Source of the DNA: Azolla caroliniana
Taxonomy: Eukaryota; Plantae; Polypodiophyta
Assembly (NCBI GenBank): GCA_043228905.1
Contig: JBHGNT010000010.1
Location: 9,052,001-9,116,000 of the forward strand
Length of the DNA stretch: 64,000 bases
Direction: 5' to 3'
Within the stretch, counting starts at the first letter, position 1, and every line of letters begins with the position of its first letter. This document shows positions 2,394 to 33,968 of this stretch, piece by piece. Below the pieces are notes generated by a model. That model had not been told where the DNA came from. It saw only the letters and a program-made list of their open reading frames with translations, and made no database searches. Both the position numbers and the translations under genes were made by a program.

Positions 2394-2440
<47 letters not shown>

Positions 2441-5400: not shown

Positions 5401-6071
5401 TCTCGTCCTGCATGGCACTCAACCACCTGCGGCTCTGGGTGTCATGCTTTGCTTCTTCAAAGCTCTCCGGCTCCCCCTCGTCGGTTAGCAGCACGTGCTC
5501 TGGTTCCGGAAATCTCCGGGGGGCCCTTCTCTCTCTTAGAGGATATCTCCGTTCCGGAGCTTCGGTAACCGGCTCCTCCGTTTCTTCTTCATCCGAATCC
5601 ATTTCGGGATCGGGGCCGGTTCCGGTATCATTTTCATCTTCCTCGGCCGGTTCTGTTTCTTCACCGTCTTCGGCTGGATCTTCGAGTGTTAACCGGTCCC
5701 TTGCCGGTCGGGACTGCTCCTCGTAGAGTTTATCCTCACCGGTCGACTTGGAGCTCTTCATCTTCTTCTCCGACTCCCAGTCGGCGAGTGTCTTGTTCTC
5801 CATGAAGATGATATCGCGACTCCGGAATATCTTCTTGTCGACCGGGTCCCATACTCGGTAGCCGAACTCGTCATCGCCGTAACCGAGGAATATGCATGGC
5901 CGGGTCTTTGGATCTAGCTTTCCTCTCCGGTCCTTAGCCACATGCACATATGCGAGACACCCGAACACCTTCAGATGCCGGTAGGATACTTCCCTACCGG
6001 TCCACACTCTCTGCGGCGTGTCTCCGTCCAAAGGTACTGAGGGTGATCTGTTTATCACGTATGTCGCCGTC

Positions 6072-9615: not shown

Positions 9616-10677
9616 CCGTCGACATCGCCTCAGCCCAAAACCCCTTGGGTAATTCCGCATGCGCCAGCATACTCCGGACCCTCTCCATTATGGTCCGGTT
9701 CATCCTCTCGGCCAGCCCGTTCAGTTCCGGCGTCTTCGGCACAGTAAACTCGAGCCAGATTCCCTTCGAGCGACAGTACTCCGCGAACTGCCCCCGGTAT
9801 TCCCCTCCGTTATCCGCTCGTATCGCTTTCAGCTTCTTGCCGGATTCCCTTTCCACTCTCGCGTGGAGTTCTTTGAAGACGCACAACACTTGGTCCTTTG
9901 TCTTCAGCGGTGCCGTCCACAGTTTTCGGCTATGATCATCTATGAATGTTACGAAGTACTGGGCTCCGCCATGTGACTTCGTTTCTACCTGACACACATC
10001 AGTGTGCACCAACTCCAATGGTGCGCTACGTCTCGTCGGTGGCCTTGAGTGGAAGGAGGTTCGGTTCTGCTTACCGGCCAGGCAATCGGTGCACTTCTCC
10101 AGGTGCACATGCTTCACTGGAATAAGGTTGTCTTCTGCAAGCCTCTTCATCCCCTTCTCACTCATGTGGCACAGTCTCTTGTGCCACAGCTCACCGGCAA
10201 TGTCGGCTGCCACGTTTAACTCTTCCGGACACAACCAGGCATTCATAAGGTACAGTGTGTTGACTTTCCGGGCCCGAGCCACTATCAGGCTCCCCTTGCT
10301 GAACTTCATTACGCCGTTCCGGATGCTACCTGTGTAGCCTTCATCGTCTAGCCTCCCGGCCGACATCAGGTTCAATCGAACCTCCGGAACGTGTCGGACA
10401 TCCTTCAGCAGCATTTTGCATCCGGTCGAGGTTGTCAACCACACGTCTCCTATGCCGACGATCCGGCACGTACCTTCATTTCCCATCCGAACACAGCCAT
10501 GCTCACCGGCTGTGTAGGATGAGAAGTATCTTCTCTCCGGGGTCAGGTGGAACGATGCTCCGGAATCGACCACCCAGGTCGTCTCATCGCCGGCAATGTT
10601 TAGTTCACCTTCTTCGGTGATGAGCATGATTTCTTCCTCACTTGCCGCGAGTGCCGTCGTTCCTTTCCGGTCCTGCC

Positions 10678-10848
10678 TGTCGAATACATGTGTATAATGT
10701 ACGTATTCATACTATCCCGTTTTGGCCATTTATGTAATTAGCATAAAGGGTAGTTGCCCTAAGTCGGTCACTATATATAGTGACCTTGTAACCTTTTTGT
10801 AAGGTTGGATGTTGTATTATTGCTTTATGAAATAAGAACTTCTTTTGT

Positions 10849-10882
<34 letters not shown>

Positions 10883-13800
10883 AACGACAGACAAACTGTC
10901 ACACAGCAGGTATTCTTGACAGCAATCGAATGCTACTTGATCTTCCGCATTGACGACATAAGTCCCAACATCTGGTATCAGAGCCTGCACAGTACTCGGT
11001 CCTTAATCCCGCTGTCGGCCGTCGTCTCAGCCTGCACAGCATTCGGTTCCTTGCGTCATTCGAAGAAGAGAGAAGAAGAAGAAAAACCAGGTTTGTATCT
11101 CATCGCGTTAGATCATCTTCGCTTGGAGTAAGCCAGCAGGTTGTACTCTGTTCTCCGTGATCGTAACCGCTCGAGGTGAAATCTCCTTGTGCAACATTGA
11201 CACGATCGTGCTCCATTCGGTTAAACGGCATCCGAAGAGGTCATCAAACGCCGCTCATTGTAACCACTCGGTGCAGATCGGTCTCAAGACAACAACCCCA
11301 ATTCGTGCTTCATCCGGCTGATCGACATTCGAGAGGATCAGTTGGATCCATCTCTCTCGTCGTTGCAGTCACCCGAAGCCGAATCGGTCCAGATAATCGG
11401 TTTCAATAATCGGCATTCGGCATATATATCCGAAGCGAACCGGGCTCACTCCGACTCGGCAACATTCGGGAAGACCAGTCGGTTCTGTCCCTCAAGCTAC
11501 CGGAGTCAATTCGAGCAAGTTCCGAAGCCGAACCGACTCGGGTTCAAATCCGACTAGAACGATATCGGGTGAGCCAACCGGCTGCACTCCAACGAGGTTC
11601 GTAGTCAACTCCGAACCGAGCTTCGTCAACCAAAACCGAATTTGATGGCATCAACATCCGGCTCATCAGAAATGAGTCTACGAAAGTTCGATGGATCGAA
11701 CTTCAACTTCTGGAAGGAACAAATGCAGGACTATCTCATAGTCAAGGGGCAAATCGATCCCATCGAAAATGAAGAACCTCCAGAAGGATACAAACCAATT
11801 GAGTGGCAGAAGCTGGACAGAATTGTCCGCGCCACGATTCGGATGCACCTATCGGAATCGGTATACTTTACGGTGCAATCGTGTACGACAGCATTCGAAC
11901 TGTGGAAAACACTGTCGGACACTTACGAAAAGAAGGTCGCCGCAACGAAGATGTTTCTGATCCGGCGCCTCTACAACTTGCGGATGAAAGAATCCGATTC
12001 GGTTCAAGCACACCTCAATGAGTACGAAAGCATAAGCTCCCAAATCTCGTCACAGGGGACGGCAATCGAGGATGAACTCAGAGCAATGATACTCATGAGC
12101 AGCCTTCCCCCATCATGGGAAACTTTCGTCACAACCGTGTGCAACGCGTCAACCACGGCTGTTAAATACTCCGAAGTCACGAGCGCAATCCTGACCGAAG
12201 CAGCTCGGAGAAAGTCTTTCGCCAAAGACTCAACAGACGATGCTTACGTAGTACAAGGTTCGACAGACCGATCGAACATACGAGGAAGAGATTCCTCACG
12301 GCCGCCGAACAATCAGCGAAGACGGAGCCAGTCACGGGATAACCGAATCTGCAACTATTGCAAGAAACCCGGACACATCAAAGCCGACTGCCGCGCACTC
12401 AAGAACAAGAACAACAAGAAGAGTGGCCGGTATGAGGAGATCAATTACGTCAGCTCCTCAGCTGATGTACTACCGGACGACCCGAATATACTATCAATCG
12501 AAAATCCAGTCGGATCAGAAGTTCTACTCACGACTGAAGAATCGAGCACATGGCTCTTAGATTCGGGCGCGTCATTTCACGTGACTCCTCATCGATCCCA
12601 ATTTCGGCAATATACGATCCGTCACTCCGACTCAGTTCGAGTCGGCAACTCACAACACTGTGACATCATCGGAATCGGCACAGTAGAGCTCAACCTTGCA
12701 GGTGGCTCTACACTTGTACTTCACAATGTCCGACATGTACCCGAGCTCTCAAGGCCATTGATCTCAGTCGGACAACTAGATGAAGACGGCATTCGTGCCG
12801 GCTTTTCTTCGGGAGGGTGGACACTCCACAGGGGGAACCTCCTGCTTGCTAGAGGACCCAAGATACACTCACTGTATCCGTTACATGTTACGCTCAGAGA
12901 GGGTAACCTGTTTTTGGTGGATATTCCTGTGTCATCACTATGGCACCGAAGATTAGGACACCTCAGCAAGGCCGGCATCACGCACCTATCTAGAGCCGGA
13001 TACATCCCCAAACTCTCCTTCTCGGACCATCAATTCTGCGAGCATTGCCAGTATGGCAAACAAGCAGCCGCATCACACCCGACATCAGCACCAAGAGAAA
13101 CGAGACCTCTCGATTTAGTCCATTCGGACGTCTGTGGCCCAATGCCGCATCAGTCTCTAGGCGGTGCATCTTACTTCGTCACTTTTATTGACGATTCGAC
13201 TCGAAAGGTGTGGGCTTATCCAATTCGCACCAAAGATCGGGTCTTCTCGATCTTCACCGATTGGCTCGCTACGGTAGAAAATCAAACCGACCGAAAACTG
13301 AAATGCTTTCGGACAGACAATGGGGGAGAGTTTAAATCCGAAGAATTCGTCAAATTCTGCCGACAACGCGGCATCCGACGTGAATTTACGGCACCACACA
13401 GTCCGGAGCAAAACGGGATTGCCGAACGCATGAATCGGACAATCCAAGAACGGACAGTTTCCATGCTCCAACACTCCGGACTGTCGGATGGCTTCTGGGC
13501 AGAGGCTCTACTCACGGCAGTACACATAATCAATATGTCGCCAAGTAGACCTCTAGGACTTCAAATTCCTCAGGAACTATGGATCGGCAGCAAGCCGAAT
13601 TACGACAAGCTGAGGATCTTCGGATGCGAGGCGTACGCCCTTATTCCGAAAGATGATCGCCGAAAACTTGCACCTCGGTCCAGGAAATGCATTTTCCTCG
13701 GATATGGATCCGACGGCGAAATGGGATACCGACTCTGGGATCCCGAACGCAGACAAATCGTCCGAAGTTCGGACGTTGTGTTCAACGAGTCGGCTATGAA

Positions 13801-16140
13801 TCCATCAGTCGAAAAACCGATCGAAGTCCGAAGGGTAACATTTTCCGATGTGCCGACCCTTCAAGAAGGCCCCGCTCTTAACACACGGTCAGCTTCACGG
13901 GTAGCTGAACCTTACACTACCGACTCGGACAACCCCGACTCGGCACAGCAGAACAATCCGCTTTCGGACCATCCGACCTTGATACCCGATGCGACCAGTC
14001 CAATCTTACCTCGACGATCCGAGAGACTGTCGCAACCTCCGGAGAGGTATTCTCCTGCAATTTTCTTCACCGACGCCGGCGAACCGACGTCTTACGAAGA
14101 AGCATCGACTTCTATCGATTCAGCCACCTGGCATCTGGCGATGGAGTCGGAAATGCACTCCATTCGGGCAAACAAGACTTGGGATCTGGTAGAATTACCT
14201 AGGAACCGACGTGCTCTTCCTTGCAAGTGGGTTTATCGACTAAAAGAGACGTCTGATTCGACCACCCCAAAGTACAAGGCCAGATTAGTCGCGAAGGGCT
14301 TCCGACAGGAATATGGCGTCGACTTCGACGAGATTTTTTCACCAGTGGTGAAAATGACAACCCTTCGTTTTCTACTCGGCGTAGTGGCAGCCGACAACTT
14401 GGAGCTGATTCAGCTAGATGTCAAAACAACATTCCTCCATGGTGATCTTGAAGAGGAAATTTATATGGAGCAGCCAAAAGGCTTCGTGACAACTGGCCAA
14501 GAACATCTAGTCTGCCGACTCAGGAAGAGTCTATACGGCCTCAAACAGGCACCGCGACAATGGTACAAGAAGTTCGACGACTTCATCCAATCGATCGGCT
14601 TCTCAAAAAGCGATGAGGACCATTGTCTCTTTACCAACACAGCTCAAGATGGATCACCCATCTTCCTCATCATTTACGTGGACGACATGCTAATTTCTGG
14701 ACGCCACGCGGGCGAACTTGCCGATCTCATTCGGCAACTGCGGTTGAAGTTTGCCATGAAGGACCTCGGTCCGGCACGACACATCCTTGGCATGAAGATT
14801 AGTCGGCATCGCGATAAACGACATCTTTTTTTGTCCCAGACCGACTATATCCGACGTGTCTTAGAACGCTTCAACATGCAATCAGCCAAATCTGCTTCAA
14901 CCCCGCTCCCCATGAATCTTCGGCTCTCTCAGCGAGACTGCCCGACATCCGGTCCGGAGGGGGAAGATATGAAGTCGGTACCATATGCACCGGCAGTCGG
15001 CTCCCTTATGTACCTGATGGTCGCGACACGGCCTGATATTTCTCACGCCGTAGGAGTCGTCAGCAGATTTATGCACAACCCTGGCCGATCGCATTGGAAC
15101 GCAGTCAAGCATGTGTTCAGATATCTGGCTGGCACAAAAGACCACGACATTCTTTTCGGTCCGAACCGAACCTCAGGCGTAGTCGGTTACACCGACTCGG
15201 ACTTCGCCGGCTGTATAGACAGTCGGAAATCAACAACCGGATACTGCTTCAAATTCGGCAATGGAGCAATCTCGTGGAAGTCGAAACTTCAGGAGTGCAC
15301 AGCGACCTCAACGACCGAAGCAGAATATGTAGCTGCGTCCGACGCAGCAAAAGAAGCTTTGTGGCTCGGTCGGCTGGCGCACACGTTTCGACAAGTCGAC
15401 CATGACTCGGCTCCAGTTGTCTACAGCGACAGTCAAGGTGCTGTTGCCTTGTCGAAAAATCCGGTTCACCACAACGCCTCCAAACATATCGACGTTCGAT
15501 ATCACTTCGTTCGGGACTGCGTCATTTCAGGGAAAATCGGTCTAGAGAAAATATCCACAACCGACAATGTCGCAGATGGAATGACCAAGTGTCTTTCGAC
15601 AGACCGTTTTCGGTCTCTTCGGCATCAGATGGGCGTAACGACAAACCAGTCCGGTTAGAGCCGGACACAGAGCAGGATGGTTCCCGACAACCGACATCAG
15701 TTCCTTAATGATCGGCTTCAACTGTTCCGACCCGACCAGTTCGGTCTTCTGCCTTCGGACCCTGCCGACCCGAACAAAGCTGTTATGTCCGAGAACCTAA
15801 GTCTATACCTGTAATCCTAGATAACCCATGTATACGCCCATTACGGGGGAGTGTCGAATACATGTGTATAATGTACGTATTCATACTATCCCGTTTTGGC
15901 CATTTATGTAATTAGCATAAAGGGTAGTTGCCCTAAGTCGGTCACTATATATAGTGACCTTGTAACCTTTTTGTAAGGTTGGATGTTGTATTATTGCTTT
16001 ATGAAATAAGAACTTCTTTTGTGCCTCTCTCTCTCTCTCTCTCTCTCTGTGCAACGACAGACAAACTGTCACACAGCAGGTATTCTTGACAGCAATCGAA
16101 TGCTACTTGATCTTCCGCATTGACGACATAATTCCCAACA
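10678..16140 (+). mobile_element. Intact Ty1/Copia element D: LTRs 10678-10970 and 15852-16140, Met PBS 10973-10984, PPT ending at 15851
   Basis: TSD CTGCC at 10673-10677 and 16141-16145. The LTRs differ by a (CT)n length change and about one substitution. Confidence 0.96.
11645..15658 (+). CDS. Copia gag-pol polyprotein of element D (uninterrupted, 1337 aa from ATG)
   Basis: Motifs in Copia order: CNYCKKPGHIKADC, LLDSGAS, VHSDVCG/RTDNGGEF, IYVDD and TEAEY. Confidence 0.95.
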   Translation: MASTSGSSEMSLRKFDGSNFNFWKEQMQDYLIVKGQIDPIENEEPPEGYKPIEWQKLDRIVRATIRMHLSESVYFTVQSCTTAFELWKTLSDTYEKKVAATKMFLIRRLYNLRMKESDSVQAHLNEYESISSQISSQGTAIEDELRAMILMSSLPPSWETFVTTVCNASTTAVKYSEVTSAILTEAARRKSFAKDSTDDAYVVQGSTDRSNIRGRDSSRPPNNQRRRSQSRDNRICNYCKKPGHIKADCRALKNKNNKKSGRYEEINYVSSSADVLPDDPNILSIENPVGSEVLLTTEESSTWLLDSGASFHVTPHRSQFRQYTIRHSDSVRVGNSQHCDIIGIGTVELNLAGGSTLVLHNVRHVPELSRPLISVGQLDEDGIRAGFSSGGWTLHRGNLLLARGPKIHSLYPLHVTLREGNLFLVDIPVSSLWHRRLGHLSKAGITHLSRAGYIPKLSFSDHQFCEHCQYGKQAAASHPTSAPRETRPLDLVHSDVCGPMPHQSLGGASYFVTFIDDSTRKVWAYPIRTKDRVFSIFTDWLATVENQTDRKLKCFRTDNGGEFKSEEFVKFCRQRGIRREFTAPHSPEQNGIAERMNRTIQERTVSMLQHSGLSDGFWAEALLTAVHIINMSPSRPLGLQIPQELWIGSKPNYDKLRIFGCEAYALIPKDDRRKLAPRSRKCIFLGYGSDGEMGYRLWDPERRQIVRSSDVVFNESAMNPSVEKPIEVRRVTFSDVPTLQEGPALNTRSASRVAEPYTTDSDNPDSAQQNNPLSDHPTLIPDATSPILPRRSERLSQPPERYSPAIFFTDAGEPTSYEEASTSIDSATWHLAMESEMHSIRANKTWDLVELPRNRRALPCKWVYRLKETSDSTTPKYKARLVAKGFRQEYGVDFDEIFSPVVKMTTLRFLLGVVAADNLELIQLDVKTTFLHGDLEEEIYMEQPKGFVTTGQEHLVCRLRKSLYGLKQAPRQWYKKFDDFIQSIGFSKSDEDHCLFTNTAQDGSPIFLIIYVDDMLISGRHAGELADLIRQLRLKFAMKDLGPARHILGMKISRHRDKRHLFLSQTDYIRRVLERFNMQSAKSASTPLPMNLRLSQRDCPTSGPEGEDMKSVPYAPAVGSLMYLMVATRPDISHAVGVVSRFMHNPGRSHWNAVKHVFRYLAGTKDHDILFGPNRTSGVVGYTDSDFAGCIDSRKSTTGYCFKFGNGAISWKSKLQECTATSTTEAEYVAASDAAKEALWLGRLAHTFRQVDHDSAPVVYSDSQGAVALSKNPVHHNASKHIDVRYHFVRDCVISGKIGLEKISTTDNVADGMTKCLSTDRFRSLRHQMGVTTNQSG

Positions 16141-18062
16141 CTGCCCTCGCCGATCCGGACCTCTCCGGTCCGTGGCTCCCCGGTATGCACCGTTTCTCTC
16201 CGGTGACTTCTTCGAATCGGTGTCGTCGGCTCCGTTGTCCTTTCGGTAATGCCGACAATTCTTCCGGAAGTGCCCCGGCTTCCCACAGTGGAAGCATGTG
16301 GGTCTTCCTCTTGACTGCGACCGAGTCCCCGACTTCTCCCGTCTTTGCGGACTCCGGTTCAATTGTCTTCCCCGTTCCGATTCGGTAAGCAGCGCCTTCG
16401 AGTCGGAGGCCGGTTCTTTATCTCTCCGACGCGCTTCTTCGTTCAAAATACTTGTCTTTACCGTTTGTAGGGACAAGTTATCTTCCGTGCAGGAGGTGCT
16501 GAGAGTCACCACCAAGTTCTCCCAGCTTTCCGGCAATGTACACATCAGAATGATGGCTTGCATTGCATCCTCCAGCGGGAACTTGATCGCCGCAAGCTGG
16601 TTCACGAATCCCATGAACGTGCTTACGTGTTCCACCATACTCTCGCCGTCCCGGTACTTGAGGTTCACTATCTTCCTCATCAGGGAGGTCCGGTTCAACG
16701 CATTCTTCCTCTCGTAGAGGCCCGACAGCTTCCGCCACATCTCATATGCGTTGATGTCGTTCGCCACATGTTGTAGAACGCTCACGTCGACGTATTGCCG
16801 AATGGTTGCAACGGCTTTCCGGTTCAGAAGCCTCCATTCCGACTCAAGTACCCCCTTCGGTATTTCCGACCTGTCAATCGGTTCGTACAGGTCCCGAACA
16901 ATCAGAAGATCCTCCATCTTGATCTTCCAATCGGCGTAATTCTGCGCATTCAGCACCATCATCCCCGGCTGCCCGCTGCCGCCGCCTTCCATTTTCTGCA
17001 GCAGCCCGCTCTGATACCAAATTGATGGAAAATATCGACACTTTCCAAACTCCACTTCTCGGCCACAACCAAGGAAACACACGAATCGTTGTTGCAGAAA
17101 ATGGGAAATGCAAAAGTAAATGAGTGGACACACGATTTAACGTGGAAAACCCTGTACGGGAAAAACCACGGGAGTACAAGACTCCGAACCAAAGCTATGC
17201 ACAGAGAAATATACAATGGCGAGCTGCAAGGCGACGACCTTGAGCTCGCTGTCCTCGCCACAGGCGGCGGAATTACACAGAGGCGTCGACCTCTTCCTCT
17301 CTCTCGTTCTATCTCTCTCACGGCTGCTCTCTCACTCTCTCTCACGACTGCTCTCTCTCTCTTCACTCTTCTTGAGTGGAAAAACAGAAAAATGAGTAGC
17401 AACATAAAAACTGTTTGCCCTAAGTCATATTTATACACATATGACTTTAGGGCTATTTACAATTATAGCCTCAAGGGCCCTTGGCAAACATATTCACAGA
17501 TATGTCCCCGCATCCGGATCTCTCTCCGGGTACATTCGTCATCCGGCTCCGAAGCCGGGGTCTTCATCATCCGGTTCCGAAACCGCAACCGGGCTTGTCG
17601 TCATTCATCTCCGACATCCGACCATCCCATCCGAAAGGGACCGTAAACCCAACAGCGAATGAGGCGAGTTGGTGCGCAATGGAGGCAGCCGACGGGACCA
17701 AGGAAGAAGGCACCGAAGTGATGCCAACAATAATTCCGGACCCTCCGGAAACATGGGGAGTCGAGGCGATGAGAACCGGCAAGGGAAATCCGCTGCAGAA
17801 TGCTGGTATTGTGGCAAGAAAGGCCACAGGGAGAGTGAGTGCTGGAAAAAGTGTGCCGATTCGGAGAGAACCGGGTCCGGATCAAGTTCCGGACAGACCG
17901 ACAAAGGAAATTGACAACGATTGCACTACGCCGAAGGATCCCGAAAAGTCGGAAAAGGATTAGCCTTCGTGACAAGACACGAAGCAAACTCGATGAAGAA
18001 GATCACCCCGAAGTCGGACGAGGTGTGGTACGTTGACTCCAGCACGTCAAACCACATGACGT

Positions 18063-18761
18063 TGTCGCGTTGTTACGCGCGTGCGTGGAGAAGGGCGGGA
18101 CCACGGGGGTCTTGGACTAAGGAGAAGGGGAGAAGGAATAGGACTTCGGAATGGAGCTTAACACAAGAAGAGAAAGAATGAACAAGAGGAAGATGGAGGC
18201 CAAATGCTCAACAAGATATATTAGAACCGAAAACCGATTACAAAATGGCGGCCGCGTAGGCCGCACCAAACGACTAAGATAAACCCGAAACCCTAATCCG
18301 ACGAAGAAGAAAAGAAACCCTAACTAAGGAACCCTAAACGAAACCCTAACCCTAAAACGAAATGGTATACCTCACTCACACTCAAAAATAAGGCAACCCC
18401 CACAATGGCGCTCTTCCTCTCCCTTTATAGCACAAGGAGGGAAGACCGTTACATAAAAGGGTGCTACAAAATATCCCCTTTCAATCAATGGGGATATTTC
18501 CCTTGATTTTAGGGGAGGTGGGAAGGATGGGTCTTAACTCCCACCTCTACACGAACTACTATGTACCTATCTCTCTCTCTCACGTGGATGTGCGCGCAAA
18601 AGCACATCACCTCTACACTTTACAATCCTAAGGTGCATTTCTAGCACCATACTTATCACTATCGATAAATAGAAATACAACATGGTGATGTGCAACGTTG
18701 CACATCGCGGGTTTGCTTGCTTCGCTCGGTTTTCCGCCTATGGACGAAAATCTTCACGACA
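18063..18761 (-). mobile_element. Solo LTR of a Gypsy C-related family inserted in the protease region of B
   Basis: Termini TGTCG...CTTCACGACA and the motif GGACCACGGGGGTCTT are shared with the C LTRs. There is a 4-bp TSD ACGT at 18059-18062 and 18762-18765, and the B reading frame (NHMT/CHKEW) rejoins across it. Confidence 0.88.
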
Positions 18762-21700
18762 ACGTGCCACAAGGAGTGGTTCTCGTACCTGGAAAAACCG
18801 ATGCAACCAGGAGTAGTTGCAACCGGAGACGACACTCCGCATCCGATCGCGAATGTTGGTGAAGTTCCCCTTAGCCATGTCGGGCAAAAAGGGAAACTCA
18901 TGAACGTGTAACACGTTCCAACAATCACGAGAACCTGGTGTCGGTCGGACAGATCGTCGACCAGGGGATGCAGGTTCGGTTTACGCATCTCAGGTGCTTC
19001 ATCGAGGAAGAAGGCTGAGTTATTGCGCAAGGGCATAGAGATGGGAGGATGTTTATCCTCGACTCTAGTGACGGTGGCACCGCAATGTTCACAAAGGGAC
19101 AAAAAATCAAGTTGGATATCGACTTGTGGCACAAGCGGATAGGCCACGTCAACTATCAACGGCTTCAAGACCTGCAATCGAAACAAGTGGTGTTCGGATT
19201 GCCCAAATTTAGTGGCCGGAGGGCACAAATTTGTGAAGCCTGCTAGTTAGGGAAGCAACACCGACTTCCTTTCCCAAACGAGTGTAACCGGAGTCGGAAA
19301 AAGCTCGACTTGATACATTCCGATGTATGGGGACCAACACAAAACGTTAGTCTTGGCGGGAGCCGATATTTTGTCTCCTTCATCGAAGACTATACGCGGC
19401 ACACGTGGATCTACCACATCGAGAAGAAGAGTGAAGTCTTCGACTGTTTCCGGGACCTCAAAGGGTTCGTGGAAATGGAAACATGAAGAAAGGTCAAATG
19501 CTTGCAGTCGAATGGCGGAAAAGAGTACTTTTCCGGTCAATTCAACGACTATCTGCAACAGATGGGAATTCGGCACAAATTTAGTTGTAGATACATGCCG
19601 GAGCAAAACGGCGTGGCCGAGAGGAAGAACCGGTCAATTGTAGAAGTGGCACGGGCAATGCTGGAGGAGAAGAGCTTGCCCAAGTTCTACTGGGCCGAAG
19701 CAGTTCGGACCGCGGTTTACATCCAGAACCGGATCGGAGAAAAAGTGTCGGCGCATGAGCTATACTTCGGAACGAAGCCGAATTTGCGACACTTAAGAGT
19801 TTTCGGTAGCATTGCATATGTGCATGTACCGAAGGAGAAGCGGAGGAAGCTGGATGCAAAAGCCGAGAAGTGTATCTTGGTCGGCTATTCAGACGAGCAG
19901 AAGGGTTATAAGTGTTATAACCCTCGCACCAAACAAGCGCGTGTGAGCCGCGACGTTGTATTTGACAAGTCCGCGTCCTGGTACCTGCCTCTGACTCCAG
20001 ACCTCACCTCCAATCCGAGTTTTGACGATGAGGTCAGCGAGGCCGAGATGCCTCCGGATGAGCCTGAAATTGGGACCCGCAAAGAGATTCAAATTTCGTT
20101 TCGATTAAGCAGACCAAATGGACAACTGAGTCGGTTCGACCAGTTTGATGAAGAGCCGCCACTACATTCCCCGCACAAGAAGCCGAGGAGACGACTTACG
20201 TGCAAGGAAAAAGGGAAGAAGAAGGTGTCGAATTACGACCACGGATAGGAACGAGTCGGATCGACGTGAGTCCGACTCTGAGGGAAGTGATGACGGGTCT
20301 CCTCAACATCGGCTAATGAACAATTACGCCGATCTACCCGCTAGAAGAACCCTGTTGTGTGGTTCGGATACAACGAGTACATGGCGCATTACTATGTGTA
20401 CATGATCCATGTAGCGGAAGTGCGTGAGCCGGAGAGCTACGTAGAAGCGGCGAAGGACGTGAATTGGCATGCTGCAATGGAGGAAGAGATGCACACATTG
20501 GCGGAGAATGAAACCTGGGACCTAGTTGACGCACCGAAAGGTGTGAAGTCGATCGGATGTAGGTGGGTGTACAAGGTCAAGTACAACACTGACGGCTCAG
20601 TCAACCGATACAAGGCCCAATTAGTAGCGAAAGGCTACGCGTAGCAACACAACATCGACTACGATGAGACGTTTGCACCGGTCGCGAAGATGACGATCGT
20701 CCGTGTTTTGCTCACGGTAGCTGTGGCAAAGGGGTGGCACTTACATCAGATGGATGTAAAGAATGTGTTCCTGCAAGGTGAGCTTGAGGAACAGGTATAC
20801 ATGGTATAGCCCCCCGGATTTCACTTCGGACCGAACACCTCAGCGGTGTGCCGGTTGAAGAAGTCCCTTTACGGACTAAAGCAAGCCCCGCGTGCCTGGA
20901 ATGCGAAAATCACGCATCGTTTGCGTCGGATGGGTTTGGCGACGTCCAAATCGGACCCCTCAATGTTCATCCGGAAAGGTCGATTCGGGCCAGTTAGCAT
21001 TTTACTTTATGTTGATGACTTGGTCATCACCGGCGCCGATCTAGGTGAGATTGACCGCATGAAGCTCCAGCTTGCGACATCATTTGACATGAAGGACCTG
21101 GGGGACCTTCATTACTTCCTCGGGATCGAAGTGATCCGCACCCCCGAAGGCATACTGATCAGCCAACGGCATTATGTGCTGAGTATGCTCTTCAAATTCG
21201 GGATGGCCGACGGTAAGTCTATCTCGACTCCTCTGGATAGAACCGGCAAGCTTCGCCCCGATTCTGGAAAGGTATGTGACCCGACGAGGTTCCGCCAGAT
21301 CGTCGGAAGCCTTATATACTTGACCATCACCCGACCAGATCTCAGCTACCCGGTCAAGGTGATTAGTCAGTTCATGGCGCGACATACCTAGGAGTACCTT
21401 ACGTGCGCAACGCGTACTACGGTACATAATTGGCACTAAGGACCGGGGGCTACTATACCGGACCGGTACAGCCCCGCAGTTGGTCGGCTACACCGATGCC
21501 AATTGGGCCGGCAACGTCGCTGATCGCCAATCGTCGATCCACGTCCGGTTTCATGCTCTCTCTTGGGAGTGCCATGATTGCGTGGAGTAGCAAGAAGTAG
21601 CCAACAGTTGCGTTGTCGAGCACCGAAGCCGAGTATAGAGGAGCGACTGTCACGACATGCGAAGCCATATGGTTGAAGCGGCTACTTAAGGATTTGCAAG

Positions 21701-23485
21701 TGGTGGTATCCGATCCAACGACAATCTACTGCGACAACCTTAGCAGCATCCAGCTAGCAAAGAACCTCGTCTTCCACACTCGGACTAAGCACATTGAGGT
21801 GCACTACCATTTCGTCCGTGAGCGTGTCCTCTCCGGTGAAGTCAAACTTCAGTATGTTCTGACGGATCGGCAGACCGCTGACATCTTCACCAAGCCTCTT
21901 GGTTTGGACAAGTTGTGGCAATTCTCGGGTGCGCTTGGGTTGCGTCACCTCGACGTGCCGGACTTGAGGGGGAGAGACCATGGAAGGGGGAGAGAAGTTC
22001 CAGAAAACCGCGATGCCAAGTTGGATGACGAATTCGATTTCGGATTGGCTGAAGAAGCCGAGGGCAGATCCACGGAAGATTCCGAAAGTGGACATAAGGG
22101 GGGTAGTCAAAAGAAAGAGCCAAAGCCAACCAAGCGTGGGGGAGATGAAGCCATCAAGGGTGGGAAGACCGAAGATGAGTTGGAGACAGCCAACTCGGAC
22201 GAGAGCGAAAACCGATCAGAGGAAGCCGAGTCGGTTCAGATGTTTGATTCGGATACTCTGAATCAACCAAGGGCCAAGCGGAAGAGAAGGCAGCAGAAGA
22301 GGCGCCAACACCGCAACAACAATGAAGCTAAGAAGGGCCGTGTGAGCAGACAAGCCCACCGGAAGGGTCGAAGCGCGCGGAATCGAACAGGTCGAGGGGC
22401 GCGAGCAAGGTGTGAAGCTAGAAGCAATCGGAGCGTAGATCCGGAAGAGCAAATAGAACCTCAAGTTGAGCTTAAGGGGGAGTGTTGAGATACAAGCTCA
22501 ACATTGGCCGGATTGGCTGTGCAAGCCAAGAACCGAATCGGTTGGGATCGATTGGTTAGGCCGGACTGATGCGTAAACCAGTGCGCAACGAGAAGCCATA
22601 GTGATGCGTAAACCGCGAGGCCGTTGGAAAGATATTCCGAGTAGGAATATATTTTGGGAGTTAGTGTAGAGCTCACTTATGAGCATTGAAGTACGTTGTC
22701 GGGGTTGCTACGCCCTTGCGTGTAGAAAGGAGGAGGGACCACGGGGGTCTTGAACCGAAGAACAAGAGAGAGAGAGATAAGAGAGAGAGACCCCGATTAC
22801 ACAGAACCGAAGTTCCGATTGCGCAGAACCGACGATTACACAGGGACACGGCCCAACAAACAGAGAACACAAATAAACGCCGACGCAGATGGACGCAACA
22901 ACGAAAGATATGTACTTATGAATGCAAGAAAATAACAGACTAAAGTACTACAACCCTCAGTGGGGCACGAAATAGATACTAACGAAAACGAACAGGGCGG
23001 CGAACAGATGCCGACCCCTGTATGTCGCGACGCACAGAAAGGGGAAACAGGTCGGAGGTGCTGCAGGACGCACTCGGGCGTTCCACGGAACAGCGCAAGC
23101 CTCCTCGAAACCTGCACAGGTACGCGATGGAGCAGAAGACAGAGAGAGCAGGAGTGAGAGAGAGGCTCCGAAATCGGTTCGGCAGCACTTCGTCCTCTCC
23201 GCGGGAGATGTCCGACTTCTATTCTTCCTCTTCCTTTTATAGCCCGTCAAGAGGCCGTTTGGCATTAACTGCATACCAACCGAATCTGCCCACCTAGGAT
23301 CCTCGTATGTACCTACTTCGTCCTTAGGTACTTCTTGGCGCGCGTGTGTGTGTAGAGCCGTTTCCCACGCCTTGTTCCTCCGATTCCTCTTGTGGGCGGT
23401 TTTCTTCACGACATCCGCCCCCACCTAACCGCGCATCCGCCGGCATGCGCCAAATTGAGTTGGCACGGAGAAAACCGGCCCGCCT

Positions 23486-26400
23486 TTACTCTTCGCCTGC
23501 CGGCCCTTCCTCGGCCTCGGATCGGTCGTCGCTGCTATCCAGGAGAATCGGGTCAGGTTCGTCGTCGTGCCGCTTCTTGAAAGCTTTGATCCTCTTCCCG
23601 GCCACGGGTATCGCTATTCTCGTTCCGTCGAGTTCCGCCAGATGATACGTCCCGTTGTCGTTGGCGCTCTGTACCGTGTACGGCCCGAACCATCTCCGTG
23701 CGAACTTCCGCGTTGCTCGGTGCTGGTTGTCGAGGCTGCTGTCGTAGACGAGCACCCAGTCACCTTCGTCGATTTTCTTCGGTCGTAGCCGGTGCGTTCG
23801 GTCGAACCGGGCTTTGTTCTTTGTCCTCGCCACCCGGAGCTTCTCCGTAGCCAGTGCCACGTCCTCCGGTCTCCGCTCGAGCTGTCGTATACGTGCGGCC
23901 AACAACTCCTCCCGGCTCATCTCGTCCCTCCAGTCGACCGTTGCCCACGAGGAGATCGTCCGTTCAATCGGCATGATCGGCTTCTGGCCGAACATGAGCT
24001 CCGTCGGCATGTACCCGGTTACCGAACTGTGCGTGGTCCGGTCTGCCCACAAAGCATAAGGTAGCAACCGCGGCCAGTTACCGACTCGGCCCCCGCATGC
24101 CCGAATCAACGCCTTGACGATCGGTCCGTGTCCGCGCTCCACCTTGCCATTCGCCTCCGGATTGTACGCAGTGGTGAGCGAGAGCTTGACTCCAAGCCGG
24201 TCGAACAGCTCCGCGGCCTCTTCGGCGTCCAACTCCCCTCGGTCAGCCACGATCTTCCCGACGCACCCGTACCGGCATATCACGTCCTCGACTAGGAACC
24301 GACACACGGCCGCGGTCGTCTTGTTTTGAAGGGCTCGGCCTTCCACCTGGTTCGTCAGGTCTTCCCGCGCTAGGACCAGATACCGCATCTGTCCTACCCC
24401 CATCGGCATCGTCACCAGATCTACCATCCATTTGAAGTGGATAGTCGGAGGGTACGTAGGGTGAAGCCCGTCCCGGTGTCGGACTATCGAGTGCATCTGA
24501 CAACTCTCGCAAGTTGACACGAACCGATGCACGTCCCGGTACAATCCCGGCCACCAGTACTTCCCCTTCAGCTTCTCAAACGTCGCCCACGTTCCACGGT
24601 GTCCAGCCCAAGGGCTGTCGTGGTAGGCCGCCAGTAGCTCCTCCTGTTCTTCCTTCATCGCCACCACCCGGAGCGGGACGCCGTTCCTCTTCTTCGGGTG
24701 CTTCCACAAATGCCCATCTCGGAGAAGGAATCGATATGCTTTCTTCCGGATCCGGTTGGCCTCGTCCTTCGTCCATGACGCATCGGGCGTCATTGTCTTC
24801 AAAAACCCGCCGATCTGCAGCCACTCCCCGTCGTACTTGCTCGCGTCGAACTCGTTAAGCGCCGGAGTGCTCATCCCGTCGGTCGTTATGTATGCCGCCT
24901 CGAAGAAATCCACGCCGACTTCTTCGTCTTCCGAAACCATGCCGCCCTCGTCGTCGAACCTCGCCCTCGAAAGCATGTCGGCCATGGCGTTGTCTTTCCC
25001 GGAAAGGTGTCGTATTTCCGGGTCCAGGGACTTGATGTACGCTATCCACCTGAGCATCGCCAGGTCCGGAGTCGCGCATCCGGAAACCATTCCGAGAATC
25101 GGCAGGCAATCCGTCTCGATGATCACTTCTGTCCCTATCAGGTAGTCTTTGTCGGCCTTAACCGCCGAAACAATACCCCAGAGTTCGCGTTTAACCTGGG
25201 CGTATCCTCGCTGCCGTTCACTGAGGACCTTCGCGCCGAATCGGATCGGAAACCGATTGCCGTCCTCGTCTTCCTGGTTCACGACCCATCCGATCCCGGT
25301 CGGACTGGTATCCACCGTTATGAATACCGGGGTACCCTTCCCGTATACCGCCTTCCGGAGTGCCGGTGCCGCTGCAAGGGCCTCTTTCAGCTTCCGGACC
25401 GATTCCGCGTGCTCGTCTAGCCATTCGAACCTTCGCCCCTTTTTCAGCAACCCGTACAGTGGCTCCGCGACGTGTGCGTAATGCGGGATCCATATGTGAT
25501 AGAACGCGCATGCCCCCAGGAATCTCCGTACTTCCGTGACCGAGCTGCAGTCGGGCTTCATCGCGGAGATGGCTTCTACCTTTGCCGGAGACGGTTTCCG
25601 GCCATATGGTCCGCACAGGTGTCCGACCACCATGATTTCTGACTGCCCGAAGGCCGACTTCTCCCCGGAGAAGGTGAGTCTCGCATCCTCTAGCCTTTGC
25701 AGTACCTTCTCGCAGTCGTCGATGTGCGTCGCCACGAATCGCCGGCATCCGTCCGGCCCGATCGTCTCGCCCTTTTCTTCCACCGGGCATCCCTTGATCG
25801 GGATGTCGTCCAGAAATGGCATGGTGATGTCCGGGATGCAGTCCCTCAGAACCTTGTTCATCGCATTCACCATGTGGGCCACCGAGTTGGTCCCTCCTTG
25901 CGGCAGTGTACACATCCGAACTAGGCCGAGGGGAGTTCGCATCGTCGTAATGTCTCTGCTCTCCACGGCAAGCTGGAACTGGTCGTACCCTGAGTATAGA
26001 TCCCCGACCGAGTAAATTGACCTTCCGGCGAAGGCCTCCGCGAACTCGTCTATGGTCGGCCCGATCCCTGCGTTCCGAATGGTCACTCGATTGACCGGCT
26101 GCAGGTCCTGGATGAAGCGCAACGAACCGTTTTTCTTCGGTACGGTAAACCATCGATTCGAATATGGGGCGCTCGACGGCTCGAGAATTCCCATATCAAC
26201 TTTCTGCCTCAGCAGCTCCATCAACTTCGGGATGTGAGCTCTCGGAACCGGGATTGGCTTGAGATTCCATGGTACATGCGGTACCGTGAAAATCACCATC
26301 GGCTCCACGATCGTCGGGTCAACGCACCCGATTTCCTCCGGCGAGAATGCGAAGGCTTTCCCGTGCCTTCCGAGCATTCTCCGAAACCGGTCTTCCTCCG

Positions 26401-26983
26401 CCGGCAGTAGGAACCCGCCCCCACCGATTTTGAGCTCTCGGAGCGTCTCGTCGGTGAAGGTGTGCCCTATGCAGGCCGGATCTCGTAGACTAGGGTCCGA
26501 TGCAACCCCTTTGATTCTCGACGCACTGTCCTCCGGTAAGGGTGCCGCGACTGGCCTTACCTTCCGGTCCACAGTCTTGTACTTGGTGCTTACGTGGGCC
26601 GTCCGAACTGACCCGAGCCCTCGACCGAAGTCCGCGATGACTTCGTACATCTCCTCGGAACACACCGGTATCGTCCGGTCTTCGTTAAGGCCTTCTTCGA
26701 CTACCTTTCCCAGCATTCCCAAGGTGTCGTCGAATGAGACCGCCTCCACGGCTCCGTTGATTTCCTCGTCAGGGCCGAGAACTCCGCACGCTCGAAGTCT
26801 CCCCTCCGCCTTTGTCTTCTCTCGGCCGCCGATGCCGACTATCGTACACGCTCCGCTGTCGGAGAACAAAAATTCCCTACCTATGGTACAAGGTTTCTTC
26901 GGTTTTATCGTACAGGTGTGGGGTTTTCCCGGGGTGTCCGGACTGTCGCGGCCCCACGCCTTGGCAGCCCTCTCTAAAAATCC
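23486..26983 (-). CDS. Gypsy C pol (RT-RNase H-integrase), probably reached by a -1 frameshift at 26977-26983
   Basis: 1127-codon ORF (PFLDD, VDTS, ADRGE, GPY) whose frame stays open back to the gag stop region in the -1 frame. Confidence 0.88.
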   Translation of the reverse strand, partial: GFLERAAKAWGRDSPDTPGKPHTCTIKPKKPCTIGREFLFSDSGACTIVGIGGREKTKAEGRLRACGVLGPDEEINGAVEAVSFDDTLGMLGKVVEEGLNEDRTIPVCSEEMYEVIADFGRGLGSVRTAHVSTKYKTVDRKVRPVAAPLPEDSASRIKGVASDPSLRDPACIGHTFTDETLRELKIGGGGFLLPAEEDRFRRMLGRHGKAFAFSPEEIGCVDPTIVEPMVIFTVPHVPWNLKPIPVPRAHIPKLMELLRQKVDMGILEPSSAPYSNRWFTVPKKNGSLRFIQDLQPVNRVTIRNAGIGPTIDEFAEAFAGRSIYSVGDLYSGYDQFQLAVESRDITTMRTPLGLVRMCTLPQGGTNSVAHMVNAMNKVLRDCIPDITMPFLDDIPIKGCPVEEKGETIGPDGCRRFVATHIDDCEKVLQRLEDARLTFSGEKSAFGQSEIMVVGHLCGPYGRKPSPAKVEAISAMKPDCSSVTEVRRFLGACAFYHIWIPHYAHVAEPLYGLLKKGRRFEWLDEHAESVRKLKEALAAAPALRKAVYGKGTPVFITVDTSPTGIGWVVNQEDEDGNRFPIRFGAKVLSERQRGYAQVKRELWGIVSAVKADKDYLIGTEVIIETDCLPILGMVSGCATPDLAMLRWIAYIKSLDPEIRHLSGKDNAMADMLSRARFDDEGGMVSEDEEVGVDFFEAAYITTDGMSTPALNEFDASKYDGEWLQIGGFLKTMTPDASWTKDEANRIRKKAYRFLLRDGHLWKHPKKRNGVPLRVVAMKEEQEELLAAYHDSPWAGHRGTWATFEKLKGKYWWPGLYRDVHRFVSTCESCQMHSIVRHRDGLHPTYPPTIHFKWMVDLVTMPMGVGQMRYLVLAREDLTNQVEGRALQNKTTAAVCRFLVEDVICRYGCVGKIVADRGELDAEEAAELFDRLGVKLSLTTAYNPEANGKVERGHGPIVKALIRACGGRVGNWPRLLPYALWADRTTHSSVTGYMPTELMFGQKPIMPIERTISSWATVDWRDEMSREELLAARIRQLERRPEDVALATEKLRVARTKNKARFDRTHRLRPKKIDEGDWVLVYDSSLDNQHRATRKFARRWFGPYTVQSANDNGTYHLAELDGTRIAIPVAGKRIKAFKKRHDDEPDPILLDSSDDRSEAEEGPAGEE

Positions 26984-29127
26984 TCTCGGTTATCGGAACC
27001 GAGGGAGTCGCGGTTACGCTCGTGGTTCGGCCTAACCGTCAAAAACTGGACCGAATGGCGCCCGTCCTGGCTCTTGACCCGCGCATAGGCCGAACCGTTG
27101 TCCAGCACCTTGGTCTCCATTCGAGCCGCCGTGATGTACGGCTCTCCCAGTATGACGGGGTGCGATGACGACTCCTGCACGAAGAAGTGCTGGTCTATCT
27201 CGACATCGCCGATCTTGACCCGTACATTCGGGCAGGCCCCGTGAAGTTCCTCGGTGGCGCGCGTCGCCGCCCTTATCTTCCACCCGTGCTTGGTGTTGAT
27301 CGGCCATTTGCCCTTCTTATAGAAGTCCATGGACATCAGGTTGATTTCCGATCCGTGGTCCACCAAAGCTACTACCGGTTCCTGGACATCGCCGATCTTT
27401 ACCGGGGTTTCCGTGGTCGCTCGGGCCCAGTGTGGCCGCGAATAGTGGCTCTCCACCCACTCGTCTTTCAGCGCCATGTCGTCCAGGTGCGTCGTCCGCA
27501 CCTCTACCGGTCTTTCCGGTTCTGTCTCCGTTGACAGCCTCTTCCGTTTCACCAAGTCCACGATGGAGTCGTGGAACTCCTTCTTGGCGATTCCCAGCAC
27601 CTCCCGTAGCGACAACTCCACCTTGCTGTCGAGGATCCGTTCCTCCAGGACCTTTCGTAAGTCCGTGGTTCTTTCTATCTCCGTCCCCAGACGGTACCCG
27701 CCCTTCTGGGGTTTATCTTGCGTACCGGCCCCGCCGGCTTCGTCCCGTCGTGGCCCGGACCGGGTCTCGTATCGTTGTGAGGGCCCGGTCGTCCCGGGTT
27801 TCCCCACCCGCTTCTCTTCTACCAGAGCCTCGTAGTTCCGGCAAGCGGCTTCCACGAAGCCCGTCTTTTCCTCGACCGGGTCGCTCCACCCGGTCATCTC
27901 CCGTACCCGTTTCTCCGCACGGTCCGATTCCTCCCTTTTAAGCCCTGCACCGGCAAGGCCTTCCAGCATCGTCGGCCAGAATCCGGCTTTGCTTTCCTTT
28001 CGGGCCTCGCCGCCCCCGACTCGAATGCCGGCCGACGCCGAGTAGTGGACGGTTTCCGCGTGTCGGGCCGCCGCCTCTTCCATCAACCTTTTCATACCAC
28101 CCTTTCCGTCGTTTCGGCTCAGGGCCCTTCGGGTGTCGCTGGCATGCACCCGTCCTTCCCACAGGTACACCACCCGGTCCCTCAGCGCCTCCGCGAAGTC
28201 GCCGCAGTCCTTCCGAACGTGGCCGACTTCATCGCACCACATGCACCTGTTTCCTGCCGCCGGCCGTCGGTCACGAGCCGGTTCGCCTCCTTCCCTTCGG
28301 GCCTGCGCGATTTGGAGGTCCTTTATCGCCTTCGTCAATTCCTCCAGCGCCGCTCCTCCGGTTGAGCCTCTGACTACGCCGGTCGAAGCCGAACCGGTTT
28401 CCAACCACTCCCGGGTCTCTTCCTTGCGCACCTGTGGCGCTGGTTCGAGCTTCCTTGCTGCGACCGAGCCCGACCCAGTCGGTCCGTTATCCGCCCATTC
28501 TCGCCGTTTGTCGAAACGGCCACAGACCTTCCTGACAGCCGCCCAGTCGGTAGTGAGCCCGTCTTCGGTTTCCAGCAAGAGGCCCACTTGCTCCCGATCC
28601 CGCTCGTCGACCGACTTGACAAACAGCAAGACCCGGCTCGTGTCCAGGATGGTTCGGTCGAGCGCCGAAAGGCGCGCAAAGTTTTCCTCGAACTCCCAGA
28701 GGAGTGCCGACGCGTTTCTTCCCTTCCCCGGGGACTCCACCCATTCCATGAACCTTCGCTTCGAAAGCCGGAGCGCGTCGTCCAGCCCGTATTTCTCTAG
28801 GAGCCGACCTTCGAACTCCTCCCAGGTACGGCTCTCCGCCCGCACCTCGAGCACCTCCGCATGGATGCTCGGTATTGCCACTCGGGGAAAACCGGCAAGA
28901 CGCCTTTCTTCCGGAATGTCCCGCATCAACATTTCTGCACCGTAGGACGCCAGATACTTCGTGGCATCCCTCCCATCGAACCGGCCGATCGTGCCGACGA
29001 CCGCCTCAATAGCTCTGTCGAGGGCACCGGTACCCTCGCGCGCGTTTACGATCCGATCCACGGCCGAAGCCATGGCCTCTGCGAGATCCGACCCCCTCAT
29101 CTTCTGCTCTTCTGCCGCCTCTTTCAC
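26974..29127 (-). CDS. Gypsy C gag-protease ORF (first ATG at 29100)
   Basis: 717-codon ORF with a CMWCDEVGHVRKDC knuckle and an LVDHGSEINL...VILGEPY aspartic protease. Confidence 0.9.
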   Translation of the reverse strand: MKEAAEEQKMRGSDLAEAMASAVDRIVNAREGTGALDRAIEAVVGTIGRFDGRDATKYLASYGAEMLMRDIPEERRLAGFPRVAIPSIHAEVLEVRAESRTWEEFEGRLLEKYGLDDALRLSKRRFMEWVESPGKGRNASALLWEFEENFARLSALDRTILDTSRVLLFVKSVDERDREQVGLLLETEDGLTTDWAAVRKVCGRFDKRREWADNGPTGSGSVAARKLEPAPQVRKEETREWLETGSASTGVVRGSTGGAALEELTKAIKDLQIAQARREGGEPARDRRPAAGNRCMWCDEVGHVRKDCGDFAEALRDRVVYLWEGRVHASDTRRALSRNDGKGGMKRLMEEAAARHAETVHYSASAGIRVGGGEARKESKAGFWPTMLEGLAGAGLKREESDRAEKRVREMTGWSDPVEEKTGFVEAACRNYEALVEEKRVGKPGTTGPSQRYETRSGPRRDEAGGAGTQDKPQKGGYRLGTEIERTTDLRKVLEERILDSKVELSLREVLGIAKKEFHDSIVDLVKRKRLSTETEPERPVEVRTTHLDDMALKDEWVESHYSRPHWARATTETPVKIGDVQEPVVALVDHGSEINLMSMDFYKKGKWPINTKHGWKIRAATRATEELHGACPNVRVKIGDVEIDQHFFVQESSSHPVILGEPYITAARMETKVLDNGSAYARVKSQDGRHSVQFLTVRPNHERNRDSLGSDNREDF

Positions 29128-30649
29128 GTCGGGTTCACCAAGATGTCGGGGTTGCTACGCCCTTGCGTGTAGAAAGGAGGAGGGACCACGGGGGTCTTGA
29201 ACCGAAGAACAAGAGAGAGAGAGATAAGAGAGAGAGACCCCGATTACACAGAACCGAAGTTCCGATTGCGCAGAACCGACGATTACACAGGGACACGGCC
29301 CAACAAACAGAGAACACAAATAAACGCCGACGCAGATGGACGCAACAACGAAAGATATGTACTTATGAATGCAAGAAAATAACAGACTAAAGTACTACAA
29401 CCCTCAGTGGGGCACGAAATAGATACTAACGAAAACGAACAGGGCGGCGAACAGATGCCGACCCCTGTATGTCGCGACGCACAGAAAGGGGAAACAGGTC
29501 GGAGGTGCTGCAGGACGCACTCGGGCGTTCCACGGAACAGCGCAAGCCTCCTCGAAACCTGCACAGGTACGCGATGGAGCAGAAGACAGAGAGAGCAGGA
29601 GTGAGAGAGAGGCTCCGAAATCGGTTCGGCAGCACTTCGTCCTCTCCGCGGGAGATGTCCGACTTCTATTCTTCCTCTTCCTTTTATAGCCCGTCAAGAG
29701 GCCGTTTGGCATTAACTGCATACCAACCGAATCTGCCCACCTAGGATCCTCGTATGTACCTACTTCGTCCTTAGGTACTTCTTGGCGCGCGTGTGTGTGT
29801 AGAGCCGTTTCCCACGCCTTGTTCCTCCGATTCCTCTTGTGGGCGGTTTTCTTCACGACAACGTGTCAATACTTTTGTTAGTCCATATGGACTTGTATAA
29901 AAGTGCTCACTGAGCACATCCTATGTACGAACTGAGTATTATTTTTGAATTGAGTTTGTGTGCATTCTCTCTCTCTCTCTCTCTCTCCCGCGTACTGTGT
30001 ATATTCAAGCTCTCCATTAAACCTGTGTTTTTGTATTCGGTTTTCTATTGCTTCCGCACCCTATTCTTTTCACAAGGATTTACAAAATACTTTGGAGATG
30101 GTCTAAGATTTCCATTGACAATATCCCCTTAAGCCAAGGGGCGGTTTGGGAAGGCGGCGTAAGAGGGGGGATAATGTCACACTCTAAACTCGAACCTCTG
30201 ACTTTTAACACACATAGTACATTGTGTTGTGTTAACAATCATATGGAAACTCTTGTGAATTGTCCACATTCGATTGTGAACTTGTATATATTGTAGAATC
30301 TACTATATAGTACATTCGAGAATATTCTAGTTATTTGTATATTCTTGAATTATTCTGTGGTATATTCTCGAGTATATTCTAGAGATATTCATTCTCAGAA
30401 ATTGTATAAATACTTGTAACATCCTTGGTCCCTTTCAAGGGATTCAACACCAATCATTGACACATCAATCTAGTATTCTCGTTTTGCCTCATCTTTGTCT
30501 CCTTGATCTTTATTTCTGTCTTCATGCCCTCATGTTGCTCACAACATCTAGAGTTCCTAGCCTCATCACATCTAGCACCAAGTTCATTCGCCGTTCGTAG
30601 CCCCATCATCTCTGCTCTGTCCTAGTCCGCACTTGGTGTGTCTGTGACA

Positions 30650-33922: not shown

Positions 33923-33968
33923 TTTTCTTATCAATGGGCACAAATCATGGAGGTTAGGGGGTGGTATA

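What the first reader, a model, noticed from the sequence alone, without database searches (positions are those of the whole stretch)
18059..29864. Two independent Gypsy C-family insertions both duplicate the 4-bp palindrome ACGT
Seen: element C and the diverged solo LTR each have TSD ACGT. The pre-insertion sites are gtACGTGTCa and tgACGTGCCa, sharing ACGTG-Y-C-A. The five other resolved insertions have five different 5-bp TSDs. Known: 5 bp is the usual plant LTR TSD, sequence-biased 4-bp TSDs occur in Drosophila errantiviruses, and ACGTGTC is an ABRE bZIP motif. Inference: a sequence-specific integrase, or tethering to G-box/ABRE-like sites. Sample size is only two.
Basis: partly seen in the sequence, partly recalled or inferred. 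Interest (0 to 1): 0.7.

Follow-up and report, generated by a model that had tools for sequence, protein, structure and literature searches.

The report
CG-centred insertion by Phygy-like retrotransposon
Both jumping-gene insertions, in what is likely a fern genome, duplicate ACGT, but related copies show that the rule is a four-base site centred on CG, already published for the moss Phygy group, so the element's own integrase likely picks CG steps and a transcription-factor motif is not needed.

Summary
Element C (22697-29860) and a distantly related solo LTR (18063-18761) each carry the 4-bp TSD ACGT, with empty sites confirmed. The five Copia insertions have five different 5-bp TSDs.

Of 84 unique 3' flanks of related LTRs from metagenome contigs, 71 start NCGN (background 4%) and 9 with a CpG-decay form. 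ACGT is the commonest word, but only 25 of 84. All 18 genuine 5' flanks are NCGN or decayed, which fixes a 4-bp stagger. Positions show no detectable coupling. The proposed ACGTG-Y-C-A extension occurs in 0 of 84 right and 3 of 18 left flanks, so ABRE tethering is not supported.

REXdb lists Phygy as 4-bp TSD (100%), NCGN, mostly tRNA-Trp PBS, and Phygy is reported in ferns. C fits these features; tree placement could not be tested. What this adds is a weighted motif (c-ACGT-g) and a clade-wide acidic residue at the integrase's target-contact position.

The parts
18059..18062 (.). left TSD copy (ACGT) of the solo LTR, inside the protease region of host Copia A
   Evidence: empty-site joint skipping 703 bases in 3 of 4 runs
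18063..18761 (-). solo LTR (699 bp) of a sister family of C
   Evidence: global score 269 vs shuffles 123 +/- 15; best relative 91% over the whole LTR in L015
18762..18765 (.). right TSD copy (ACGT) of the solo LTR
22693..22696 (.). TSD copy (ACGT) at the 3' end of element C, inside the 3' LTR of Copia A
22697..23413 (-). 3' LTR of element C (717 bp, identical to the 5' LTR)
23414..23430 (-). polypurine tract of C
   Evidence: sequence; the same tract precedes 21 LTR starts in related loci
23486..26989 (-). pol ORF: RT, RNase H, integrase (H2C2, DDE core, SH3-like C-terminal domain); no chromodomain or aRH hit
26974..29154 (-). gag-protease ORF (DUF4100 hit), overlapping pol in the -1 frame
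29124..29140 (-). primer-binding site, 3 nt after the 5' LTR; tRNA-Trp type (isotype recalled, not from a call)
   Evidence: same PBS type at 24 of 120 matches
29144..29860 (-). 5' LTR of element C
29861..29864 (.). TSD copy (ACGT) at the 5' end of element C
   Evidence: depth step after 29864 in four runs
2292..2295 (.). empty-site equivalent: single ACGT in the 5' LTR of host Copia A
   Evidence: 2078-2295 matches 22479-22696; 2292-2528 matches 29861-30077
2082..30074 (+). host Copia element A (TSD AGGAT) that received both insertions and nested elements B, D, E
47419..60153 (+). third, broken relative (G3): 5' truncated, interrupted by Copia F and an RT fragment; its 3' end is followed by ACGC
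   Evidence: pol 74% aa identity; only one flank, so TSD not resolvable

Best explanation
Element C and the solo LTR are independent insertions, each with a 4-bp ACGT duplication, of a likely Phygy-clade Ty3/gypsy lineage whose integrase likely selects CG-centred four-base sites by itself. Shown: a 4-bp stagger, a central CG in about 85% of related sites (95% with decayed forms), and a symmetric weighted motif c-[A>C>G]-C-G-[T>G>C]-g with no detectable coupling between positions; ACGT is simply its likeliest word. Inferred by analogy with the foamy-virus intasome: the two-fold symmetric integrase complex kinks the target at the central pyrimidine-purine step. Because TA, TG and CA steps are rarely used, it likely also reads the C:G pairs directly. 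Candidate readers (inferred, untested) are the conserved loop before the GPY motif for the core, and the acidic residue at the PFV Ala188-equivalent position for the outer bases.
For: Flanks: NCGN in 71 of 84 unique 3' flanks against 4.0% background (p about 1e-85), 9 CpG-decay forms, 4 other. Of 18 genuine 5' flanks, 14 are NCGN and 4 decayed; CG sits at +2/+3 on the right and -3/-2 on the left, which only a 4-bp TSD gives (6 spurious starts of 24 removed by eye). Position 1 and the complement of position 4 do not differ (p = 0.18). A1 x T4: 25 observed, 23.8 expected (p = 0.62). G outside the TSD: 12 of 25 ACGT and 21 of 46 other NCGN (p = 1.0). All three subgroups share the bias: 11 of 11, 50 of 60, 10 of 13 NCGN. 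In four runs holding this window's DNA, 14-20% of LTR-end depth continues through ACGT and then falls 9- to 12-fold. Targets are scattered: 26 of 84 flanks match the window's repeats, at different positions. Phygy is published as 4 bp (100%), NCGN, n = 186. PFV kink and Ala188/Arg329 contacts: PMC4422553 passages.
Against: None of the 9 metagenome contigs that show flank-LTR-flank has matching 4-mers on both sides. I read these as short-read chimeras: 6 contigs show the impossible PPT-LTR-PBS order, and L022 and L079 share a right flank but differ on the left. So two-sided TSDs rest on the window's two cases. All 116 family loci come from 13 assemblies with adjacent accession numbers, likely one campaign and a related host (best whole-LTR identity 86% to C, 91% to the solo LTR), and the scan stopped at 120 matches. 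The reading of TG/CA centres as decay was not confirmed (p = 0.10 and 0.22). No biochemical test exists here. The role of named residues is analogy only. Phygy placement on a tree is untested.
Confidence: 0.8

Rival explanations
1. The integrase, or a host partner, prefers methylated CG, so the motif is a route into methylated, repeat-rich chromatin that replaces a chromodomain.
For: The centre is nearly always CG. No chromodomain hit. Both window insertions and at least 26 of 84 related ones sit in other repeats. Phygy is among the families reported as enriched at liverwort centromeres (PMC12885004 passage).
Against: Nesting is expected in a repeat-rich genome, and repeats here are simply CG-richer (CpG observed/expected 1.06-1.18 against 0.45-0.63 outside). 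No methylation data were available. This refines the best explanation more than it replaces it.
Confidence: 0.12
2. A bZIP or bHLH factor bound to ABRE/G-box sites tethers the integrase.
For: The consensus spells the G-box CACGTG: G follows the TSD in 33 of 71 NCGN sites (p = 1e-5) and C precedes it in 11 of 18.
Against: 59 of 84 sites are not ACGT. The ABRE-like ACGTG[TG]C occurs in 1 of 25 ACGT sites. The outer G is as common at non-ACGT sites. The extension occurs in 0 of 84 right flanks; pooled 3 of 108 against 1.6 expected, p = 0.22, with the 6 spurious starts still in that pool. A bound factor would be expected to cover the bases that are cut (inference).
Confidence: 0.04
3. Two ACGT TSDs are a coincidence or a boundary artefact of an unbiased integrase.
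For: Only two two-sided cases; two-sided metagenome contigs do not match.
Against: Empty sites fix the 4-bp duplication. CG enrichment p about 1e-85 and ACGT p about 1e-46. The search pattern ended at the LTR terminus and did not constrain flank bases.
Confidence: 0.02

Closest known systems
Phygy clade, non-chromovirus Ty3/gypsy (Neumann et al. 2019, PMC6317226; passages, section 3 part 2 and supplement 3 read)
   Same: 4-bp TSD, NCGN motif, tRNA-Trp-type PBS (isotype recalled), short element almost filled by the polyprotein, no extra domain or extra ORF.
   Different: Defined from Physcomitrella; this host is likely a fern (ferns are reported to have Phygy, PMC13477047 passage). C is 7164 bp, below the listed 7656-9968. 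The passages and table I read give NCGN without outer-base weights; the per-element table was too large to read.
Ginger1 DNA transposons (Bao et al. 2010, PMC2836005; passages)
   Same: Gypsy-type integrase with a 4-bp CG-centred TSD: CCGG 75%, CCGT/ACGG 24%.
   Different: DNA transposons of animals with TIRs; the modal word is CCGG, here ACGT.
Drosophila errantiviruses (PMC5408687; passages)
   Same: Palindromic 4-base targets (TATA, CGCG, ATAT) chosen by gypsy-type integrases.
   Different: Different motifs and hosts; no close relationship tested here.
Prototype foamy virus intasome (PMC4422553 passages; best sequence and fold matches)
   Same: 4-bp stagger and a central pyrimidine-purine step; DDE core aligns with E = 3e-20.
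   Different: Retroviral 4-bp sites show about 63% enrichment of any YR step. Here one step, CG, dominates, and Glu replaces Ala188 with a one-residue-shorter segment after it.
TatI (REXdb supplement)
   Same: 4-bp TSD and tRNA-Trp PBS.
   Different: TatI carries an aRH domain (100% of 4 elements); none was detected in C, and no NCGN motif is listed for TatI.

Membership tests
Phygy | Ty3/gypsy order GAG-PROT-RT-RH-INT | tested here: met
   Pfam order RT, RH, INT; gag and protease assigned by inspection
Phygy | 4-bp TSD | tested here: met
   CG register on both flanks
Phygy | NCGN target motif | tested here: met
   2 of 2 in the window; 71 of 84 and 14 of 18 in relatives
Phygy | PBS complementary to tRNA-Trp | tested here: inconclusive
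   PBS seen at 29124-29140 and at 24 related junctions. The Trp isotype is recalled; only listed plant small-RNA papers holding the complement.
Phygy | no chromodomain, aRH or extra ORF; polyprotein fills the internal region | tested here: met
   no such Pfam hit at E 0.001; ORFs cover 23486-29154; the model shows a beta-rich C-terminal domain and a disordered tail
Phygy | size 7656-9968 bp (descriptive range) | tested here: not met
   C is 7164 bp against the range, which comes from one moss genome
Phygy | RT-RH-INT phylogeny within the Phygy clade (the formal criterion) | not testable with these tools
   REXdb sequence file too large to read. Named homologues listed were Riccia and Adiantum, none from Physcomitrium. 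No tree was built.
TatI | aRH domain | tested here: not met
   no second RNase H hit; short linker between RH and INT
Chromoviruses (e.g. Galadriel, partly 4-bp TSD) | C-terminal chromodomain | tested here: not met

The most novel reading that the evidence does not exclude
From liverworts to ferns this lineage uses an integrase that reads CpG directly, through a remodelled target-binding surface (Glu at the Ala188 position in a shortened segment, plus a conserved loop before the GPY motif), and senses CpG methylation. That would steer insertions into methylated repeats without a chromodomain or host tether.
Probability: 0.12. Interest if true: 0.65.

Novelty: new member of a known kind. Interest (0 to 1): 0.25.

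Why it matters
Most plant LTR integrases show little sequence choice, and the Phygy NCGN exception has no mechanism in the papers I read. This window supplies an element with two uninterrupted ORFs and identical LTRs, a quantified target motif and candidate residues, which makes the basis of CG specificity testable. The headline claim, a 4-bp CG-centred target, is already published, and the ABRE idea does not hold.

Tried and rejected
No whole genome is held, so the genome-wide logo was replaced by a metagenome scan and sequencing-run contigs.

IMG/VR held no relatives. The protein atlas gave no result. Cluster look-ups gave no informative names.

Two-sided TSDs from metagenome contigs: 0 of 9 matched; treated as chimeras.

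Rows dropped before counting, of 120 matches: 24 PBS junctions, 4 non-family chance matches and 8 duplicate flanks. Of 24 left flanks, 6 were removed by eye as non-LTR starts.

The test of TG/CA centres as older copies was inconclusive. No insertion hotspot was seen. Read-run loose ends gave only mixed consensus, so they were used for depth and positions only. CACGACA at 59135 and CGACAACGT at 2960 did not align to the LTR ends and were set aside.

Literature: a search for NCGN returned 93 papers; the 20 listed were unrelated. Searches showed no mechanistic study of Phygy targeting in the held library. PMC6911290 (passages) reports GC-rich centres for pooled 4-bp TSDs. PMC7466625 and PMC6839031 (passages) added nothing on this point. 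Supplements of PMC6317226 that could not be read (per-element TSD table, sequences) may already hold the outer-base weights.

Full report
Observation. Element C spans 22697-29860 on the minus strand with two identical 717-bp LTRs and ACGT on both sides; the solo LTR spans 18063-18761, also with ACGT on both sides. ACGT is outside the LTR, since the inner junctions carry a PBS and a polypurine tract. Both insertions lie in one host Copia (A, 2082-30074). Its 5' LTR shows C's empty site with a single ACGT at 2292-2295, and contigs from 3 of 4 sequencing runs skip exactly 703 bases at the solo site, that is 699 plus 4. The solo LTR is a sister family: global score 269 against 123 +/- 15 for shuffles, with similarity mainly at the ends. 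The other five insertions have five different 5-bp TSDs.

What C is. It encodes gag-protease (DUF4100 hit) and, in the -1 frame, RT, RNase H and integrase, with no chromodomain or aRH hit. Named homologues are from Riccia (up to 65% over 941 aa) and Adiantum (74% over part of RT). The DUF604 gene near 63 kb has its best named hits in ferns (61-66% for the top ones) ahead of gymnosperms and bryophytes, so the host is likely a fern.

Test on many copies. No genome was held. I scanned metagenome contigs with a motif shared by three LTR ends in the window, ending at the LTR terminus, so flank bases were unconstrained. The scan stopped at 120 matches. After removing 24 PBS junctions, 4 non-family matches and 8 duplicates, 84 unique 3' flanks remained: 71 NCGN, 9 with TG or CA in the centre, 4 other. 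Background NCGN is 4.0%. ACGT led with 25, followed by ACGG 13, ACGC 7 and CCGT 6. On the 5' side, 14 of 18 genuine flanks end in NCGN and 4 in a decayed form; CG at +2/+3 on one side and -3/-2 on the other fits only a 4-bp duplication. In four runs that hold this window's DNA, 14-20% of depth at C's LTR end continues through ACGT and then drops 9- to 12-fold, with mixed loose ends after it; contig depth is only a rough measure.

Word or weights. The motif is symmetric (p = 0.18 for a difference) and shows no coupling: ACGT is seen 25 times against 23.8 expected from its outer bases, and the G just outside is as common at other NCGN sites (21 of 46) as at ACGT (12 of 25). The consensus happens to spell CACGTG, but the ABRE-like word occurs in 1 of 25 ACGT sites. 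The left-side count is a weak hint of asymmetry that a larger set should check. Two ACGT in a row has probability 0.09 under this spectrum.

Results against. None of 9 contigs with a flank on both sides has matching 4-mers. Six other contigs show PPT-LTR-PBS, and two share one flank but not the other, so collapsed assembly is the likely cause, but two-sided proof rests on the window's two cases. All 116 family loci come from 13 assemblies with adjacent accession numbers and from a related host, not this genome. The decay reading of TG/CA centres was not confirmed.

Mechanism. Shown: 4-bp stagger and a symmetric CG-centred preference shared by three subgroups. From the literature: integrases with a 4-bp stagger kink the target at a central pyrimidine-purine step, and PFV Ala188 and Arg329 contact bases (PMC4422553 passages). 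PFV integrase is the best sequence and fold match. Inferred: bending alone would also admit TA, TG and CA, which are rare here (2, 4 and 5 of 84), so base reading is likely. The residue aligned to Ala188 is Glu in 57 of 59 aligned integrases and Asp in 2, in a segment one residue shorter than PFV's, and the loop before the GPY motif holds conserved His, Gln, Lys, Phe and Arg. These are candidates only. Sensitivity to methylation could not be tested.

Comparison. Neumann et al. 2019 state that Phygy elements prefer NCGN while other plant TSDs are highly variable, and tabulate Phygy as 186 elements, 4 bp (100%), NCGN, tRNA-Trp PBS 81%. Ferns are reported to contain Phygy. C meets the TSD length, motif and domain features, has a PBS I recall as Trp-type, is slightly shorter than the listed range, and could not be placed on a tree because the reference sequences were unreadable. 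Ginger1 transposons and Drosophila errantiviruses offer parallel palindromic 4-base targets.

Verdict. The feature is real and non-random, but it is a new member of a described kind. The sequence-biased integrase reading holds in the broader NCGN form; ABRE tethering does not. Interest 0.25.

Noticed in passing
window 26974-26983 (-) and about 48983-48992 (+): A slippery-like G GAT TTT heptamer sits directly before the gag-protease stop, with pol in the -1 frame and a predicted downstream hairpin, in both C and relic G3. The frameshift would fall between protease and RT; REXdb lists Phygy's ORF organisation as not determined.
   Followed up: partly
window 6072-9615: Element D: LTRs of about 370 bp, TSD CCGTC, a single 929-codon open frame rich in Glu/Lys/Gln with no Pfam hit, no RT or integrase, and no TGG-type PBS seen. 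Possibly a non-autonomous LTR element with an unexplained cargo.
   Followed up: no
window 47419-60153: Third, broken relative of C (pol 74% aa identity), 5' truncated next to a Copia gag fragment, interrupted by Copia F and an RT fragment; its 3' end is followed by ACGC.
   Followed up: partly
window 18687-18706: Perfect 20-bp palindrome with a central ACGT-containing core inside the solo LTR.
   Followed up: no
window 2082-30074: Six LTR insertions nested in one cluster with CpG observed/expected about 1.1, against 0.45-0.63 in the neighbouring non-repeat DNA.
   Followed up: partly
L024, L029, L031, L062, L076, L098, L102: Several related insertions landed inside elements of the same lineage.
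   Followed up: no
window 62997-63677 (-) and 33848-33923 (+): DUF604 gene exon with best named hits in ferns; a tRNA-Pro(TGG) gene.
   Followed up: partly
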